Of a stretch of DNA of 64,000 bases, positions 17,065 to 26,526 are shown piece after piece. Position numbers and translations under genes: made by a program. The notes beneath the pieces were generated by a model, which worked only from the letters and a program-made list of their open reading frames with translations, did no database searches and was not told where the DNA came from. Position 1 is the stretch's first letter. The number at the start of each line of letters is the position of its first letter. The DNA is taken from the NCBI GenBank assembly GCA_023213395.1, contig CM041465.1:188301741-188365740 (forward strand), given 5' to 3'. Source of the stretch: Cycas panzhihuaensis. Lineage: Eukaryota > Plantae > Cycadophyta.

Positions 17065-17497
17065 TATTACAGGAGGTTTTTGAGGTTATGAGTTTTGTCT
17101 AGTTTGAGATGTTCCTTTGGAATCTATGCCTCCATGGAGAAAATATGGATGATGCATCCTGCATGCCCTTTATAGATTAATTTATCTATTTTTGATGTGG
17201 ATATGACTTTAGGATTTAGTGTAAAGATTCCAAAGACCTAATGTAGTCTTCCATCCCAATGGAACTAAATAAAGTTTTGATCATGGTTTAGTGCATAAGT
17301 CCCTAGCTTCTTCAGCCATTTGACTCCTAGTATAATATCCAAAGTTTTGATAGGAAAATCATAATAGCTAGTGTAAAAGGAGAGGGTGTTAATTTAGAGT
17401 TCTGAATTAGGGAGTTCCCTATCACAACTAATTTTTCTTTCACATGGTACTTTAATATAGAAGATTTTGGACCTATCAATAAATATACCTAAGTAAA
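17065..17497 (+). repeat. 433-bp direct repeat, copy 1 (left flank of the 17498-20851 element)
   Basis: Collinear with 20852-21284; the offset is 3787 at both ends. Confidence 0.95.
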
Positions 17498-20400
17498 TGT
17501 AGCGAGCCAAAAATAATACAATAGATAGAAGCTCTTTTCAATAATGAATATGTATTCAAAGCAGCTCACAACATTTCATAGCAATAAATTTCATATGTCA
17601 CAATAGATAATTATAATAGTACAACCTCATAAATAGAGATAATAGTAGCATATGTGAATAATAATAAATAATATGAATAGAATGATAACACCTGATAAAA
17701 TATCTAGCAGCTTGATCAACCCTCTTCGATGTGAGAGTGACCCTCCAAATAGGCACTAGGCCCTAATTGCATGAGGCCATTATCCCTTCATAATAGAAAA
17801 TCTCCAAGATGATTTTAAAATGAGGGAGGCTCTATATTTATAGCCTTCAAACCCAACTTCTTACTTTTCCCTCCAAAAAATTGACTTCATAATAAAATAA
17901 ACTAAAATAAAATAAAATAAAATAAAATAAAATAAATAATTCTTCTTTTAATTCTTTTCTAAAACCTAACTTCATCATATTAAGTGAAACTGACTTCTTC
18001 AATATTTTGGGAATGCTATAATTCCCCTCCCTTTAAAATGATACTTCACCCTTGAAGTATCAAAAATTTCTTATAGCTTGATCTAATCTTTCAACCACCA
18101 CCTATTATATCCTGTAGGTCATAAAGATTTGGCTAGATCTCGTGTCTTTTATGGGGCTTTGCTATCAAGTATCTTGAATTTATCGATGTTTATTCTTAGG
18201 ACTAGGTAGATGCTATGTCTTATTCTGAATCAAAAGGATCTTAAGACCTATGAGGTACCTCAGATGACTTGTCCTAGTCTTGCCTTGCATTTGCATATTT
18301 TATTTCTAAATGGGATGGATTTTGGGAAAAGATGTAAAGACTTTGGGAAAAGAATTGACCGTGAGGGTCATGGATAGATGATTTCCTATTATGAAAAAAT
18401 ATAAAGGAAGAATTGTGAACTGTGATCAAGCATAACTTTGAAGGTATAGAAAGAAAGGATAAATTTTGGAATATGTCTTGGATGGAGATAAAAGTTTGTG
18501 TAAGTTTTGTTGGACCACAACACTTTTTAGAAGAGAAGGATAGATGGGAAATTGGTGATAGATGTTCTTTATGAAAAAAATGATTTAATAGGTTGTTAGG
18601 AATGGTATTTAGACAAAAGGAAAGATTTAATAGAAAAAAATAATATTAATGATATGAAATTGAAGGGGTTTGGGAAAAGTCAAATAGGGTTTTGTAAGGG
18701 GTAATACTAAGAGATGAAACCTGATGAATAGATTGAAATTGTAACATATCCCATTGAGAAAGTCCTATAGAGGGTGAAGGAGTAGGTGAGTATAGAGATG
18801 AACCAGGGTTATAGAGGGAATTAGAATTTGAACTACAAAAAAACTAAAGTTAAGGGGATTAAGAGCATGGCTAACCATGGGTTGAGGAGAAAATGGCTTT
18901 TGTATTACTATTGAACTAAGGAAAGAGAGAGGACATATAAAACTACTAAACAAAATATACATGTGTAATGTAGGAAACGAGCTTTGCATGAAATTTATTG
19001 AGAAAAATATGCTTGTTCTTCATTGTCTTCATACTACTCCTATGTAACTTCACTTTGGATTTCCTCTCTAATATTGAAATGAGACTCTTTTATTACTTGT
19101 GCCTGCTTCGAGTTTTCTATGTCATCATATTATTTTCTCTATGATATATCTTGTTCTAGCTCTTGAAAAATCTCTAAGATTTCTTCATTAACAATGTCTT
19201 CTTCTTGTCCTTCCTCATCTACTTGAATCTCACCCTGCTTATATTTCTTAAAAGCTATGGTGGCCACCTCTGAAAACTAGTACCATAGAAAAGGTTATTT
19301 AGCCCAGTTAATGAACCACTCATAAGCTCGTCCATTCAATATCATTCCTAATAATGACCCATATTCTTCCATTTCTGTATTAGACGTAAACTCATAGTCT
19401 TCTATCCATTTTTTTTGTCTTCATAATCCTCTAAATTAAAAAAGTCTATCTCCATTTTTCCTCAATAAAGGCTACACTTAGATGATTAAAATCTATGTTC
19501 TCTATCTATTAAAACTATTACATATGACCACTTGTATCAAACATCTTTGCATAAATTTTTCCTTAAATTCCTACATTAATTCTTAGCCCGTAAAGATTCC
19601 TCTGGGCACACTTCATTCTATTTTTTTTTGCTTCATTGTGTGGGAAAGACTCTACGTGCCTATCACTATTTGGCACTTGTAAATAACACACTCTACCATC
19701 AAAACTGTGGTCTTGAGATTCCTCCAAATGGAATCGCCCCTTCTAGAAATCGATAATGGCTTCTAGATTCTTTGGTTAGGCACTGACATTCTCACTTTCA
19801 TAGCTGGATTACGATTGTCTCTTACCTTCTCTCGACTGCCAGATGACATGTGATTACCCCAATATTTAGAAGTGTGTGTTTGACCCTTTTTGTCATTGGT
19901 GTCTGTTCGTGTAATCATCAAACTTTACACAAATCTGTCATTACATTTATTGATTTTTTAAAAAATGATGGCATACCCTTACCTACTAATATCACTACTC
20001 TATGGATGCCTGCTTATATGCTATGGTGGATATGTTTGTGATCTATGTTATTGACCTCTTTGTAACTATGATGGGTGCACGATATTTGATTTTGTATATG
20101 GTGTTAGTTGCTCCTCTTAATCCTCGATGGATGTTTTCTATATTCTCTTCCTTAAAGGCTTAGAGTTGACTAGCTCTTGCTAGCGACATCCTGGATTCCA
20201 CTTGTATAAAATATGCATATTTCTCCACAAAGATGTGATGAATGCTCTTCCACTAGTAATGTACACTATGATTTTCTAAGATAGATTTAGTAAGATGACT
20301 TAGCTCTAATTTTCTTATTCAATCCTACTTTCACTTCTCACGTGGCTCTGATATCAATTGTAGTAGGCCAAAAATAGTTCAACAAATGGAAGCTCTTTCT

Positions 20401-20851
20401 AATAATAAATATGTATTCAAAATAGCTCACAACATTTCGTAGCAATAAATTTCATATGTCATAGTAGATAATTGTAGCAGTACAACCTCATAAATAGAGA
20501 TAATAGTAGCATATGTGAATAATAATAAATAATATAAACAGAATGATAGTACTTGATAAAATATCTAATGGTTTGATGAACCCTCTTTAAGGTGAGAGTG
20601 ACCCTCCAAATAAGCACAAGGCCCTAATGGCGTGAGGCCGTTATCCCTTCACAATAGAAAATCTCCAAGATGATTTCAAAATGAGGGAGGCTCTATATTT
20701 ATAGCCTTCAAACCCAACTTCTTACTTTTCCCTCCAAAAAATTGACTTTATAATAAAATAAAATAAATAATTCTTCTTTTAATTCTTTTCTAAAAATTGA
20801 CTTTATCATATTAAGTAAAATTGACATCTTCAATATTTTAGGAATGCTACA
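17498..20851 (-). mobile_element. Non-autonomous Gypsy-type LTR element with gag-like relic and no pol (TR-GAG-like)
   Basis: LTRs 17498-18020 and 20359-20851 (TGTAG..CTA(C/T)A, ~90% identical by eye), PBS rc GCTCTGATATCA 20345-20356, PPT rc ATTCCCCTCCCTTT 18021-18034, 2.3-kb interior with gag-like patches. Confidence 0.85.
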
Positions 20852-21284
20852 TATTATAAGAGGTTTTTAAGGTCATGAGTTTGGTCTGGTTTAAGATGTT
20901 CTTTTAGAGTCTATGCCTCCATGGAGAAAAGATGGACGATGCATCCTACATGCCCTTTATGGATCAATTTATCCATTTTTGATGTGGATATGACTTTAGA
21001 ATTTATTGTAAAGATTCCAAAGAACTGATGTAGTCTTCCATATTAATGGAATTGAATAAAGTTTTGATCATGGTTTAGTATAGAAGTCCCTAGCTTCCTA
21101 AGCCATTTAACTCCTAGTATAATATCCAAAATTTTCATGGGAAAAGTATAATAACTAGTGTAAAAGGAGAGGGTATCAATCTAGAGTTCTAAATTAGGGA
21201 GTTCCTTATCCCAACTAATTTTTATTTCATATGGTACTGTAATACAAAATATTTTTGACCTATCAATAAATATACCTAAGTAAA
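20852..21284 (+). repeat. 433-bp direct repeat, copy 2 (right flank)
   Basis: 16 mismatches in the first ~126 bp versus 17065 onward (hand count), mostly transitions. Confidence 0.95.
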
Positions 21285-22639
21285 TGGCTATCTACACCCA
21301 TTAAACCCTATATACAATAATTTATACATCGAGGAAAGGCCATGACACTACAAGCCCCCTATTGTGTGATGAAGTAATCCTCGCTTGATTTAGTATAGTC
21401 CTCCATGGGACCCTTATTTCCCCTATATGATTTGTCACTACTCCATCAAGACCATCTATCTAGAGCCATTATTGAATGCATGGATACCCATAAAGAAGGG
21501 ATACTCCCGTCTGTATAAAAAATTTCCATCTGTAAGGATGTCTACGCCCTACATCATATTATGTAGTTACGACCTACCTCTATCGAGCTAAATCGACTTG
21601 CAGTGTGTCATCCTTCATATTGACAATGCATGACACCCTCTACATTTATGCATGCCTCTTGAAAAGCTTAATCACTGTGTGCAGGTGAAGCTTGATCTAC
21701 AAGTAATGTCTCTCGGCTAACTATTAATCCCCTTGTGCCAATGATTATGCCCTTTGTATGTCCTTACTCACTGTGAATACATTATGTAACTTGCCTAAGC
21801 TCATTAATTCAAGTGTGAGGTGAAAATTCAAAGAATTCAAAGAGATCTCATTGATTTTATAGTGAATTTATTACCCCTATTATGTGATTAATGCCTTTAT
21901 GTCTTCATATTTTCTAACATTAGAGTATATTTTTCTTATAAAGTTTTTATTTAATTTAATTAGATTGGAATCTTATTTGAGGTCTATAAGCCCCTTATTT
22001 GCTAGCAATCAATCATATACAACCTTAATGTGACTAGGGAATACACTACATAAGGGTCTAAAAGCCCACTCCAATTTAGCTTGTCACTCGTAAGGAGGTC
22101 TTTGTACTATTTTTGCAATATCTTCTCAATTAGGTATTCATTTATTAAATTGTCTAAACCATTGGAATCCTAACTTAGAGCTCTACATATTGGACTAATA
22201 TTTAGTTGATTTTAGGTATATTTTAAGCTATCTAAATCCCCTTATTTTACCTCTTATTATTTATTCATTTAAAGCTATTTTTTCATCAATTAAAGGTTTT
22301 AAATATACTTTAAAATGGGATATTATAGCTACTAGCATTTCTTCATCGCTTAAGAAGTATTTTTTACTCATTTTCTAAGCTAACATATGTGATGATTTAT
22401 GGTTGTAGGTTCTCTTCTTATGTGAGGAAGGTTACTTTTCACCTTTTAGAAATGACCACTTCCTAATTGAGCACTCTAAACCCTTTCTTTTGTATTTTTT
22501 GCTACTTTTGTTTATTCATGTCTCTTATTTTTAATAATTAAAATTCACTATTATTGTCTTTATATAAGACCACATTAAAAAGGAATTTTAATTGCTATTA
22601 AAAACTCTTGAATTGAATTGCTAGACTACTAATCCTATA

Positions 22640-23020
22640 AGGGGAAGAATTAGGACCCCTGAAGTTAATCACTCCTACACACATAAGTTGTATTTACCTA
22701 GATAAGTAAGCTAGGGAATAACTTGATATGAAGTATACTAAGTGATGGATTGAGGTGTTAAAACCTCCCTTTGGTGTTTAGAGACTAGGCTAGGCTTGCA
22801 AGGGGTAAGTGCCTTGGTTGTAGTCCTTTGCTAGATCCATCACTTAGTATAAATCTGGTGTAGGTGGGCAAATAGTATCAGGGGGGGTAGCCAGCCTTGT
22901 ATACTTATGTATCGAGATATATTGAGTATAACTTACTCATATATCAATGTATATAGAGTCCTTAAACTGCCATCTATGGGTAGGTTCCCCTAGACAGAAT
23001 AACAACCAAGGGCTTCCTTA
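22640..23020 (+). promoter_or_regulatory. Putative structured cis-acting RNA domain in the Copia-C leader
   Basis: Perfect 17-bp inverted repeat 22734-22750/22835-22851 plus several hairpins, ending ~60 nt before gag; homologous domain at 44163-44545. Confidence 0.6.
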
Positions 23021-23076
23021 GAGACATTGAAACTTTAGAACTCTACCTTAATAGCTTATTAGGCAGAGAATACATA

Positions 23077-24340
23077 ATAGTAGCTCAAATATTAATTTCA
23101 AATACAATTAAACTATTAGGAATTGATAATTTTTTGGCTTAGAAGAAATAAGTCAAATACCTCTTAATCATAGATGATTTTTAGGCTTGCGTATCTAGAG
23201 ACATACCCAAGCCTATCCTATATATGATCTAAACAACCCAAATAATGTGATCCCTCTAGACCTTATTACCCTTACTACCTTAAGAGCTAAAGATAATGTA
23301 GTTCTATTTTTCATTTACTTAGCTATGGACGATAATATGGACCAAAACATTGAAATGATAAATACCTCTCATAAAGCTTAGAATATTATATGTTCCTTCT
23401 CTGAGTAGAAGGATGACTCTAGAGTGATTATGCTAAAAGCACACTTATATGCTATAGCTTTTATTGGTTCTATCCCCTCATATATGACCAAAGTCAAGTC
23501 TATTAGGAACTAACTTAATACTCTTGGAGCTTGTCCTTCTAACTATGACCTTTTTGTCTGTGTCATAAATGTCCTTCCCTTTATATGCAATAGTTTATCT
23601 TTTATCTATCCAATGAATTTTCCACTGTAGGCTTCAATACCTTAGAAGGACAATTGTTAAAGGAAGAAGGCATCCTGAGCTATCAAGGAGCAACATACTC
23701 TTCTAACTTTGTTCCTACATTTGTATCTAAGAATGGTAAGATAAATTAGTCTCAATAGCAACCTCTTACCCAATAGTTTAGTTCAATGAATTTAAACCAA
23801 CCACCACAACAAATAAGAAACCAATAGGAGAGATAGAATGTTACCTACTTATATTGTGGAAAACCTAGGCATGTGATTATAGAATGCAGAAAAAGAAAAT
23901 CTGATCTACAACTTGTATAAAATGCAACTAGATAATAAGGAGGCCCATATCAATAATATAATAGAGGTTGTAGTTATGGTAATAAATAACAACAAAATAA
24001 TCAACCTAAGAATCATAATTAGGAAAATGATAGGAATTTCTAACAAGGAGGCCATGTGGCTAATTCCAAAGTTGATTCCCAGTACCTGTTCTTTGATGCA
24101 CTCTCTTCTCATCATGTTAATAATTCTTGGTTAATAGATTTTAGTGTTACACATCACATGACAGGCACTAAAGAGCTCCTGAAAGACATCACACCTACTT
24201 AGGCATATATAGTTACACTTGGTGATGATATTATATATGATGTGGCTAAGGCTAGGAAAGCTCCTATAGCCCTAAAAAATTTAAATATTCATCATCATAT
24301 AAGCAATGCCCTTTATGTGCTTGGTACAAATTAGAACCTA

Positions 24341-24381
<41 letters not shown>

Positions 24382-26526
24382 AGTTAGATTGATAAGCAAA
24401 ACTTTGAAGTACTCTTTAGCCATGGAACATGCACTATTTTTAACCAATGAGCTAGTCAAGTAGTAGTAACAGGACATGAAGATAATGGACTCTATAAACT
24501 CAGTGGTGTCTTACTTTATACTACACATAATTAGAGCTTATGTGCCACAATGCAATCTAAGCAAGTAGATAAGGGTACGCAAATTATTACAAAAGACCCA
24601 CCTATTGATATGTAGGAAGAATCCTCTCACAATCATGAGTAGCCTACTCAAAAGTGTACTAAGGAGTAAATATGACATCAATGCCTCAGTCATCTAAATA
24701 TACATAGTCTTAATATCATGTTTAGACTTTAAATGTACATGAGTTACTAAGGATCAAATAGAATAAATATTTCTTTAAAGCTTGTATTATTGGCAAATGA
24801 CACAAGGATCCTTTTTAATCTAAGAAAGTTTGGCGTGTAATTGAACCATTGGGATTGGTTAACTTAGAAATTTGTGGATCTATGTCAATTCCTTCACTCA
24901 ATGGTAGTTTGTACTTTATCACTTTTACTGATCATTATTCTCAAAATGTTTGGGTTTATTTTCTAAAGAATAAGTTTGAAGCCTTTGACAAATTTAGGAA
25001 CTTCAAAGTTAAAGTGGAAAATGAATCCTATGTAATAATCAAGATCTTTTATATAGATAATGGGGGTAAATACACATCAAATCAATTCACTATAATTTGT
25101 AAAGAACATGGCATTAAATACCAATTATCAACTCCTTGAACTCCTCAATAAAATAAACTTGCTGAATGTATAAATCAAATATTGGTGAACAAGGCTAAAG
25201 TAATGGTCAAATCTATAAACCTTGATAATACATTTTGGGTTGAAGCTATTCATACTACTACATACCTGACAAATAAGATCTCAACTTTAGTAGTCAGAAA
25301 TATAACATCTAAAGAGGCTTAGTTAGGATAAAAGCCTAGTATCTCACACCTTAGAATATGTGGATGTACTGCCTATAAGTTCATTGCAAAAGAAAATAGA
25401 AAGAAAATTGATGATAAAAGCTTGAAGTATATTTTTATAAGCTACACACCTAGGTATAAAGCTTATAAGGTGTATGACCTTGTTAGAAGATAGGCATACT
25501 CATCTTTAGATGTTATATTTTCCAAAGATAATCAAACTTGGATCAATCTCAACTATAATTTTTGATAGATGATGGTATTACTATTTCAGAAGCTCCTCTT
25601 ACACAAATTATGGATCCTTCTGTTCCTTCAACTTTATATACTCAAAGTTTATCATTTGCTCCTGATGCATCTCTATCTACTTCTATAACAACCTCTACAT
25701 TTCCATGTCCATCTTTAGATAACATTCATGTTAAAGCTAAAAGTATTAAGAAACCTCTTAAGTGGTATTTGCAGGCTATGAAAGATGCACCATCACCTCT
25801 TGTAATACTAAAAAGACAATCAAAGTTAAGGAATATAACAAAATTTGCCTTAATGGCACAAGTTCTCAATGCTCTCGAGCCTTCCACCTTTGAGGAGGTA
25901 GTCAAAGACTAAACATGGTAAGTGACTATAGATGAAGAAATGTATTCCATCCAAAAAAATGATACTTAGGAGCTTACTGAGTTCCCTCTTGGAAAGAAGC
26001 CAATTGATTGTCATTGGCTTTATAAAACTTAGTATCATGCTGATAGCTCTATTGAAAGACATAAAGTACATCTTATTGTAAAAGGTTTTAAATAATAAGA
26101 AGGTATTAACTATGATAAGTCCTTCATAGATGTTGTTAACATGATAATATTTTTGCCTAGTTATGCCACTAATAACTCAATTCAAATGGCTTATCTACTA
26201 GATGAATATAAATAGTGCTTTTCTCAATGGAGACCTCTTTGAAGAAGTTTACTTGAGAAAACCTCTTATCTATATTGTTCTTGGAAAAGAACATTTAGTT
26301 TGTAAGCTCAATAAAGCTTTATATGGACTCAAGCAGATACCTTATGTATGGTGTGCAAAGATTGTTGCTTTTTTCCTCAAGCATGGACTGAATCATTCAT
26401 CCTTTGATCTTGATTTATACATTTAGGTTTACAATAATCTAATCACCATTGTTTTTCTTCATGTTGATAATTTATCAATCATTAGAAATGATGATAAAGG
26501 GATTGTTCAAAATAGGGATCAAAATT
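23077..26526 (+). pseudogene. gag-pol: Copia-C gag-pol pseudogene
   Basis: Start decayed to ATA; zinc knuckle YCGKPRHVIIEC, protease SWLIDFSVTHHMTG, integrase ORF 24849-25139, RT NSAFLNGDL..KALYGLKQ and HVDNL (YVDD). Confidence 0.9.
24344..24379. repeat. (CT)n microsatellite expanded inside Copia-C pol
   Basis: Visible run at the NLLS motif; absent from the homologous site in Copia-D. Confidence 0.95.

What the first reader, a model, noticed from the sequence alone, without database searches (positions are those of the whole stretch)
22640..23020. Large multi-helix RNA domain immediately upstream of gag in Copia-C (IRES, packaging or ribozyme candidate)
Seen: a ~380-nt GC-richer island ending ~60 nt before gag. 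Closing pair AGGGGAA 22640-22646 / TTCCCCT 22985-22991; hairpin AAGTTG..CCTAG/CTAGG..TAACTT 22685-22724; perfect 17-bp helix TATACTAAGTGATGGAT 22734-22750 / 22835-22851 enclosing GAGGT/ACCTC and GACTA..AGGC/GCCT..TAGTC hairpins; possible pseudoknot CCCTTTG 22767-22773 with loop CAAGGGG 22799-22805; helix TAGGTGGGCA 22861-22870 / TGCCATCTA 22968-22976; hairpin GATATATTGAGTA/TACTCATATATC 22916-22945. Inference: the long AUG-rich leader is poorly suited to scanning, so a folded element next to the start codon suggests an internal ribosome entry site or a dimerisation/packaging signal. I do not recognise it as a known RNA family.
Basis: partly seen in the sequence, partly recalled or inferred. Interest (0 to 1): 0.78.

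Follow-up and report, generated by a model that had tools for sequence, protein, structure and literature searches.

The report
Conserved folded RNA before retrotransposon gag
A high-copy family of plant jumping genes keeps a 390-base non-coding stretch just before its first gene as well conserved as its protein genes; it is predicted to fold into several hairpins, matches no catalogued RNA family, and likely is the signal by which the element's RNA is recognised and packaged, a role that is untested.

Summary
Every named helix is present. The 129-nt core folds at z=-5.6 and ranks second of 430 windows. A diverged second copy of the same Ty1/copia family carries the homologous domain before gag. 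The domain is as conserved as gag and integrase (65% against 63-66%). Its inner helices mostly survive in copy 2, and one hairpin shows two double transversions in a hand-shifted alignment. Over 2,000 contigs in each of three runs lie on it. The 7-bp closing pair, the 22861/22976 helix and the pseudoknot are not supported. The leader is not AUG-rich and has a candidate intron acceptor at 22408 in both copies. Rfam and ribozyme tests are negative. Best reading: a family-specific, Psi-like Gag-binding packaging/dimerisation domain (0.45); an IRES or translation enhancer is second (0.25). No function was tested. Only two full copies were available, and most double changes are of the deamination type.

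The parts
22636..23030 (+). Conserved structured leader domain (copy C)
   Evidence: 64.7% identity and 0.142 transversions per site to copy 2, equal to the coding DNA; fold z=-3.4; population contigs
22640..22660 (+). Local hairpin AGGGG/CCCCT with an 11-nt loop, in the 22623-22664 block that has the highest leader depth in the laid runs
   Evidence: 5 of 5 pairs kept in copy 2; local fold in both copies; depth table; only 0.07 pairing probability in the whole-domain ensemble
22685..22724 (+). Irregular hairpin whose sequence diverges (42% identity) while the fold stays
   Evidence: pairing probability 0.8-1.0; copy 2 hairpin 44207-44250; 6 of 6 outer pairs with two double transversions after a 1-nt hand shift of the 5' arm; the unshifted alignment keeps 1 of 6
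22734..22851 (+). Core: 17-bp helix closing a multi-way junction with the GAGGT hairpin (22752-22767) and the GACTA/TAGTC arm (22783-22825) with a G-rich loop
   Evidence: z=-5.6; 25 of 30 pairs kept in copy 2, 4 double changes, all transitions; 0.085 transversions per site, below the coding DNA (p=0.03)
22873..22903 (+). Hairpin pairing a G-run with a pyrimidine run
   Evidence: local folds of both copies; 0.17 pairing probability in the whole-domain ensemble
22916..22945 (+). GATATAT/ATATATC hairpin
   Evidence: 7 of 7 outer pairs kept in copy 2, one double change; the inner GAGTA stem keeps 3 of 5
22974..23026 (+). Conserved 3' block: small hairpin around the TAGGTTC loop, an A-rich linker and AGGGCTTCCT
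   Evidence: block of 80% or more identity 22977-23005; depth peak 22959-23042; sequences of both copies
23077..23079 (+). Position of the gag start; the start codon is lost in this decayed copy
   Evidence: aligned with the ATG of copy 2 at 44616; gag homology by tblastn from 23253
22098..22408 (+). Candidate leader intron: acceptor 22408 with a branch-point-like motif 29 nt upstream; donor uncertain
   Evidence: 25% GC and 45% T in both copies; the aligned donor is consensus-like only in copy 2 (43630)
44161..44556 (+). Homologous domain in the second copia copy (5' LTR ~42230-42626, tRNA-Met-type primer site 42627-42638, gag ATG 44616, 3' LTR ~47790-48186)
   Evidence: fold z=-2.08 on plus and -0.89 on minus; Pfam PF14223 for its gag
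23077..26520 (+). Decayed copia gag-pol of copy C (many stops, at least one frameshift), cut at ~26520 by another insertion
   Evidence: (rve, RVT_2)

Best explanation
The stretch is a conserved non-coding domain in the long leader of a plant Ty1/copia family, predicted to fold into a row of hairpins around one multi-way junction, and it likely is the family's Psi-like signal that Gag binds to dimerise and package the genomic RNA. Shown: position just before gag, conservation at the level of the coding DNA, presence in many copies, retention of the inner helices in a diverged copy, and absence from the window's other two copia families. Inferred: that it acts as RNA on the plus strand; that the zinc knuckle of Gag binds the G-rich loops (22794-22810, 22880-22887, 22981-22987) held out by the helices; and that Gag is translated from a leader shortened by splicing at 22408 rather than by internal entry.
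For: Transversions per site are 0.142 in the domain and 0.085 in the core, against 0.21-0.25 in the upstream leader (p=0.0004 and 0.0002) and 0.16-0.17 in gag and integrase. 48 of 57 pairs are kept in copy 2 without the poorly aligned hairpin (permutation null 44.7, p=0.027; 6 double changes against 2.3, p=0.007). All 7 common population variants in the bodies of the well-supported helices keep a pair (outer 22685 stem 2, 17-bp helix 3, GAGGT 1, GATATA 1), six of them as G-U on the plus strand. The first ~550 nt behind the primer site are not homologous between the copies (43%, alignment noise), so the packaging signal that every LTR element needs (established knowledge) is unlikely to lie there, and this domain is the best-conserved stretch of the leader. 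Precedent: RSV's 82-nt O3 stem with three minor stem-loops is a sufficient packaging signal in the leader and is present in both spliced and unspliced RNA (PMC5035971, passages read). A ~380-nt 5' region with a pseudoknot is needed in cis by Ty1 and holds its main Gag-binding site (PMC6844567, passages read).
Against: No binding, packaging or expression data. Only two full-length copies could be compared. I dropped the 22685 hairpin after seeing its poor alignment, and chose the 3-bp GGC register after seeing copy 2. All 6 double changes are transitions, which methyl-C decay can mimic. Across all helices only 9 of 16 population variants keep a pair (null 7.3, p=0.03), and variants are not depleted in helices (16 of 28 variants; 140 of 352 positions). 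No palindrome of 6 nt or more is shared as a clear dimerisation loop: the 8-nt palindrome at 44176 is absent from copy C. A second perfect 18-bp inverted repeat in this copy's integrase shows that perfect helices can be copy-specific. A 2-kb leader ending in a stable fold is still hard to scan.
Confidence: 0.45

Rival explanations
1. The domain is an internal ribosome entry site or cap-independent translation enhancer for gag, possibly overlapping the packaging signal, letting the element tolerate a long and variable leader.
For: It ends 45-85 nt before the gag start and is followed by a conserved A-rich linker. The leader of copy 2 is 1.98 kb with 27 AUGs, and its first part varies between copies. 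IRES activity is reported for LINE-1, Drosophila gypsy and VL30 leaders (PMC10974842, passages read).
Against: AUGs are below expectation, and downstream of the candidate acceptor only 1 of 8 is shared, which fits scanning. A candidate intron acceptor is conserved. The translated RNA of the plant copia BARE1 is capped (PMC3735527, passages read). The pseudoknot is unsupported.
Confidence: 0.25
2. The domain controls RNA fate: it hides or exposes splice acceptors, or promotes export and stability of unspliced RNA.
For: Two AG|GT sites conserved in both copies (22863, 22983) lie in or beside predicted helices, a donor-like G|GT is conserved at 22431, and the DNA between is T-rich.
Against: Neither site has a branch-point-like motif in either copy, and their upstream T content is only 0.35-0.40. 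The helix over 22863 has near-zero probability in copy C. No RNA data.
Confidence: 0.12
3. The domain is an anciently captured host non-coding RNA or a DNA-level element (promoter module, cruciform) kept for a reason other than an RNA signal of the element.
For: The minus strand folds as well in copy C. Earlier unchecked notes describe captured host fragments and an antisense promoter-like block in copia leaders of this genome.
Against: No Rfam family reaches its gathering score in either copy; no tRNA. G-U-type variants favour the plus-strand RNA, and copy 2 folds better on plus. The position relative to gag is fixed.
Confidence: 0.1
4. The fold is a by-product of methyl-C decay and of copy-specific perfection of inverted repeats in an otherwise ordinary leader.
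For: CG is depleted to 0.07 of expectation. The double changes are transitions. There is a second perfect inverted repeat in coding DNA. The core of copy 2 folds no better than shuffles (z=-0.93).
Against: Transversion-level conservation equal to the coding DNA cannot come from decay; a hairpin is kept at 42% identity with double transversions; the helices sit in register in both copies (sliding controls 33-48% against 92%).
Confidence: 0.05
5. The domain is a self-cleaving ribozyme.
For: A weak Rfam match of copy 2 to the hairpin ribozyme (14.8 bits, gathering score 65, E=3.4).
Against: That match lacks part of the model and is absent from copy C. No exact hammerhead core motif on either strand. 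Cleavage between the primer site and gag would separate them, destroying the template (inference).
Confidence: 0.03

Closest known systems
Rous sarcoma virus minimal packaging signal (O3 stem with three minor stem-loops; PMC5035971, passages read)
   Same: A long stem closing several minor stem-loops in the leader before gag; present in spliced and unspliced RNA, as this domain would be if splicing ends at 22408.
   Different: Retrovirus, 82 nt, close to the primer site. Here the core is 118 nt within a 390-nt domain about 1.5 kb from the primer site. No sequence or model match was found or tested directly, and Gag binding is untested.
Yeast Ty1 5' domain with pseudoknot and PAL palindromes (PMC6844567, passages read)
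   Same: Ty1/copia superfamily; a structured cis-acting region of about 380 nt near the start of gag.
   Different: The Ty1 region is at the 5' end, includes the primer site and runs into gag. This domain is wholly non-coding and far from the primer site, with no conserved palindrome or supported pseudoknot.
Barley BARE1/BARE2 leader (PMC3735527, passages read)
   Same: Plant copia with an untranslated leader; the paper mentions conserved dimerisation and packaging signals and separate RNA pools for translation and packaging.
   Different: The BARE1 intron described there is spliced out to favour a Gag-only RNA, and the passages read describe no such fold. I could not compare sequences.
IRES-bearing leaders of Drosophila gypsy, VL30 and LINE-1 (as cited in PMC10974842, passages read)
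   Same: A long retroelement leader with a domain next to the first ORF.
   Different: Animal gypsy-type, retroviral-type or non-LTR elements. No copia or plant case appeared in my searches. The AUG load here is low.

Membership tests
Psi-like packaging/dimerisation signal of LTR retroelements | Lies in the 5' leader between the primer site and gag (or early gag) | tested here: met
   copy 2: primer site 42627-42638, domain 44161-44556, gag ATG 44616
Psi-like packaging/dimerisation signal of LTR retroelements | Conserved stem-loop structure within the family | tested here: met
   moderate statistics, two full copies only
Psi-like packaging/dimerisation signal of LTR retroelements | Conserved self-complementary (palindromic) dimerisation loop | tested here: inconclusive
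   no shared palindrome of 6 nt or more in a loop; both copies are decayed
Psi-like packaging/dimerisation signal of LTR retroelements | Binds Gag/nucleocapsid and confers packaging | not testable with these tools
   needs bench work
IRES / cap-independent translation element | Long leader loaded with conserved upstream AUGs | tested here: not met
   long, but AUGs are below expectation and 3 of 16 are shared
IRES / cap-independent translation element | Match to a catalogued IRES or translation-enhancer model | tested here: not met
   no such Rfam family at E up to 10 in either copy
IRES / cap-independent translation element | Drives initiation without a cap | not testable with these tools
   needs reporters
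Small self-cleaving ribozymes (hammerhead, hairpin, HDV-like, twister, pistol, hatchet) | Catalytic core and fold of a known class | tested here: not met
   Rfam scans gave only a chance-level hairpin match in copy 2; no exact hammerhead core; decay lowers sensitivity
Ty1/copia superfamily (host element) | Order gag, integrase, reverse transcriptase, with copia-type Pfam domains, LTRs and a tRNA-Met primer site | tested here: met
   PF14223, PF00665, PF07727; order; LTRs and primer site seen for copy 2 only
A named plant copia lineage (such as Gymco I-IV of PMC6317226) | Placement in RT/RH/INT trees | not tested
   no named reference proteins came back

The most novel reading that the evidence does not exclude
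This is the first defined RNA fold of a plant copia leader that both packages the genome and serves as an internal ribosome entry site, switching through a pseudoknot between 22768-22774 and the G-rich loop 22796-22802. It would free the leader upstream to carry captured host RNA fragments without loss of Gag translation.
Probability: 0.15. Interest if true: 0.75.

Novelty: new variant of a known kind. Interest (0 to 1): 0.47.

Why it matters
LTR retrotransposons fill large plant genomes, yet my literature searches turned up no structurally defined packaging signal or IRES for a plant copia element (open-access library only). A compact domain conserved at coding level, with thousands of natural variants, is a ready target for covariation analysis, probing and Gag-binding assays. 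It would also mark which non-autonomous or gene-carrying elements of this family can still be packaged.

Tried and rejected
1) The stretch TAGTATCAG at 22874 as a primer site, which would put the domain in the LTR: rejected, because copy 2 has its primer site 1.5 kb upstream and lacks this motif. 2) A hidden ORF: the plus frames have 16 stops each in copy C and 11-19 in copy 2; the minus frames have 6-25, and no frame is open in both. 3) An internal TATA at 22561: not conserved in copy 2. 4) Ribosome shunting: no conserved short ORF ending before the fold, and the closing helix is unstable. 5) Homologues elsewhere: pattern scans of viral and metagenome contigs found 0; a gag query in metagenome contigs found 0 of 132 candidates; the genome-contig scan gave 6 irrelevant 18-residue bacterial matches; alignment queries were not accepted as too variable; no whole genome is held. 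6) A covariance model of the core finds only its two training copies in the window, the next hit being the core's own reverse strand and then microsatellites. The leaders of the two other copia elements show no 250-nt window below z=-2.2 upstream of gag. 7) Expression: no RNA holder listed; the RAD-seq run gave 0 reads. Neither is evidence. 8) Lineage naming: two protein searches were empty, one gave five unnamed or uninformative hits, the closest gag relatives are unnamed fragments, and the Atlas gave only generic copia gag clusters. 9) A weak U6 match (E=0.47) and miRNA-like matches are treated as chance. 10) One search does not list a variant at 22767 that one search shows at about 90%, and lists nothing within about 35 nt of its ends; I could not resolve this, so the variant test uses only (28 of its 40 shown rows fall in 22640-22991; 258 further rows were not shown).

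Full report
Setting. The window is AT-rich (30% GC) DNA made of nested, decayed LTR retrotransposons and long TA microsatellites. The element in question (copy C) has a broken copia gag-pol from 23077 to about 26520, with integrase and reverse-transcriptase Pfam hits in copia order. Its gag relatives are plant copia clusters. An earlier, unchecked note calls the host a gymnosperm, likely a cycad; I did not test this. No whole genome is held.

The observation. The stretch 22630-23020 folds at -122 kcal/mol, z=-3.42. The core 22728-22856 folds at z=-5.64 and ranks second of 430 windows of 130 nt, on a grid aligned to it. The 17-bp helix, the GAGGT hairpin and the 22685-22724 hairpin have pairing probabilities of 0.8-1.0. 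The reverse strand folds equally well (z=-3.87). A second perfect inverted repeat of 18 bp lies in the same copy's integrase, so perfection by itself is weak evidence.

A second copy. Self-comparison found a diverged element of the same family at about 42230-48190, with LTRs, a primer site at 42627, a 1.98-kb leader and a gag ATG at 44616. The domain aligns at 44161-44556. Identity and transversions per site between the copies are: first leader segment 43% and 0.30 (not homologous), middle leader 52-61% and 0.21-0.25, domain 65% and 0.14, core 70% and 0.085, gag 63% and 0.16, integrase core 66% and 0.17. The domain differs from the upstream leader (p=0.0004) and not from coding DNA (p=0.42); the core is more conserved than coding DNA (p=0.03). 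This is the strongest result: a non-coding stretch under purifying selection. No reading frame is open in both copies.

Is the fold conserved? On a sequence-only alignment, copy 2 keeps 50 of 68 pairs (permutation null 47.5, p=0.16). Without the 22685 hairpin, where identity is 42%, it keeps 48 of 57 (null 44.7, p=0.027) with 6 double changes (null 2.3, p=0.007). That exclusion and the 3-bp GGC register were chosen after seeing the data, one pair of the TAGGT helix was left out by a register slip, and all six double changes are transitions, which cytosine decay can mimic. The 17-bp helix alone keeps 12 of 17 (p=0.48). In the core, 25 of 30 pairs hold in copy 2, and sliding the partners drops pairing from 92% to 33-48%. 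The 22685 hairpin is present in copy 2 as its own strong hairpin. Shifting its 5' arm by one base, which raises local identity from 2 to 4 of 6, gives 6 of 6 pairs with two double transversions. The core of copy 2 alone folds no better than shuffles (z=-0.93); its whole domain gives z=-2.08 on plus and -0.89 on minus. A shifted register, 22768-22774 with 22796-22802, has 5 of 7 pairs in each copy, and the variants listed at 22796, 22797, 22798, 22799 and 22801 are compatible with it. This is a lead only.

The family. Eleven of 24 listed runs, under six organism labels, hold part of the stretch. Three DNA runs laid 2,226, 2,344 and 2,864 contigs on 22560-23160, and a RAD-seq run laid 0. Four runs laid 335, 422, 455 and 38 contigs on the core. 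Depth peaks fall at 22623-22685, 22770-22853, 22938-23042 and the start of gag; the tool warns that such depth is not a copy number. Those that break pairs are the two in the closing pair, two at helix ends, two in registers peculiar to this copy and one in the short GAGTA stem. The seven in the bodies of the well-supported helices all keep a pair, six as G-U, which favours the plus-strand RNA. Variants are not phased, so this is not covariation. A model of the core finds no further copy in the window, and two unrelated copia leaders lack a comparable fold, so the domain is family-specific as far as tested.

The leader. It is long but not AUG-rich: 16 observed against 22.5 expected in copy C and 27 against 34.7 in copy 2, with 3 shared and none shared inside the domain. 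Of 13 YAG sites conserved in both copies, only 22408/43936 has a branch-point-like motif at 29-30 nt in both and the highest T content. With criteria that I set after seeing this site, 3 of 1,397 plus-strand YAG sites in the window pass, all in these two leaders, and 0 of 1,507 on the minus strand. The donor is uncertain: it is consensus-like at 43630 in copy 2 but not at the aligned 22098. If splicing ends at 22408, the domain stays in both spliced and unspliced RNA and only one shared AUG lies downstream. No RNA evidence was available.

What it does. Every LTR element needs a cis signal for Gag to select and dimerise its RNA (established knowledge; PMC6844567, passages read), whereas internal entry is optional, and the translated RNA of BARE1 is capped (PMC3735527, passages read). 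The DNA right behind the primer site is not conserved here, in line with an earlier unchecked note on captured fragments (I confirmed only the lack of homology). The best-conserved leader stretch is this domain. Its core, a long stem closing minor stem-loops with G-rich single strands, resembles in outline the RSV O3 packaging signal (PMC5035971, passages read); this is a resemblance, not a tested homology. I therefore put a Psi-like role at 0.45, an IRES or enhancer at 0.25, control of splicing or export at 0.12, a captured RNA or DNA element at 0.10, a decay artefact at 0.05 and a ribozyme at 0.03. That retroviral nucleocapsid proteins prefer unpaired guanines is recalled, not from a call.

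Known or new. Four Rfam scans gave nothing near a gathering score. Ten literature searches of the open-access library listed no description of such a fold in a plant copia leader; subscription journals are largely missing, and I read no supplements. For PMC6317226 and PMC10974842 I read passages only. Structured leaders are a known kind of feature in LTR elements, so this is a new variant with an uncatalogued fold, of moderate interest until covariation or function is shown.

Noticed in passing
window 25298-25315 / 25503-25520: Perfect 18-bp inverted repeat inside the integrase coding DNA of copy C, the longest in the unmasked window; not in register in copy 2 by eye.
   Followed up: partly
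window 53278-53312 and 41181-41213: Hairpin present in both LTRs of another element, with the lowest fold z in the window scan.
   Followed up: partly
window 17065-17499 / 20852-21286: A 435-bp direct repeat (88.5%) flanks a minus-strand LTR element (LTRs about 17500-18018 and 20356-20849) in place of a short target-site duplication. Copy C's own 5' LTR and primer site were not found.
   Followed up: no
window 22476 and 43998: The motif CTAAACCCT, telo-box-like (label recalled), occurs only twice on the plus strand of the window, at the aligned position in both leaders, about 70 nt after the candidate acceptor.
   Followed up: partly
   Followed up: no
window 43909-43995 (minus): Weak U6 snRNA match (E=0.47) over the candidate acceptor of copy 2; treated as chance.
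   Followed up: no
window 21300-21830 and 42660-43200: GC-richer segments at the start of the two leaders that are not homologous to each other; possibly captured host fragments.
   Followed up: partly
window 55162-57100 and 11980-10400: Two other copia elements also have long leaders (roughly 1.5-1.9 kb), without this domain.
   Followed up: partly
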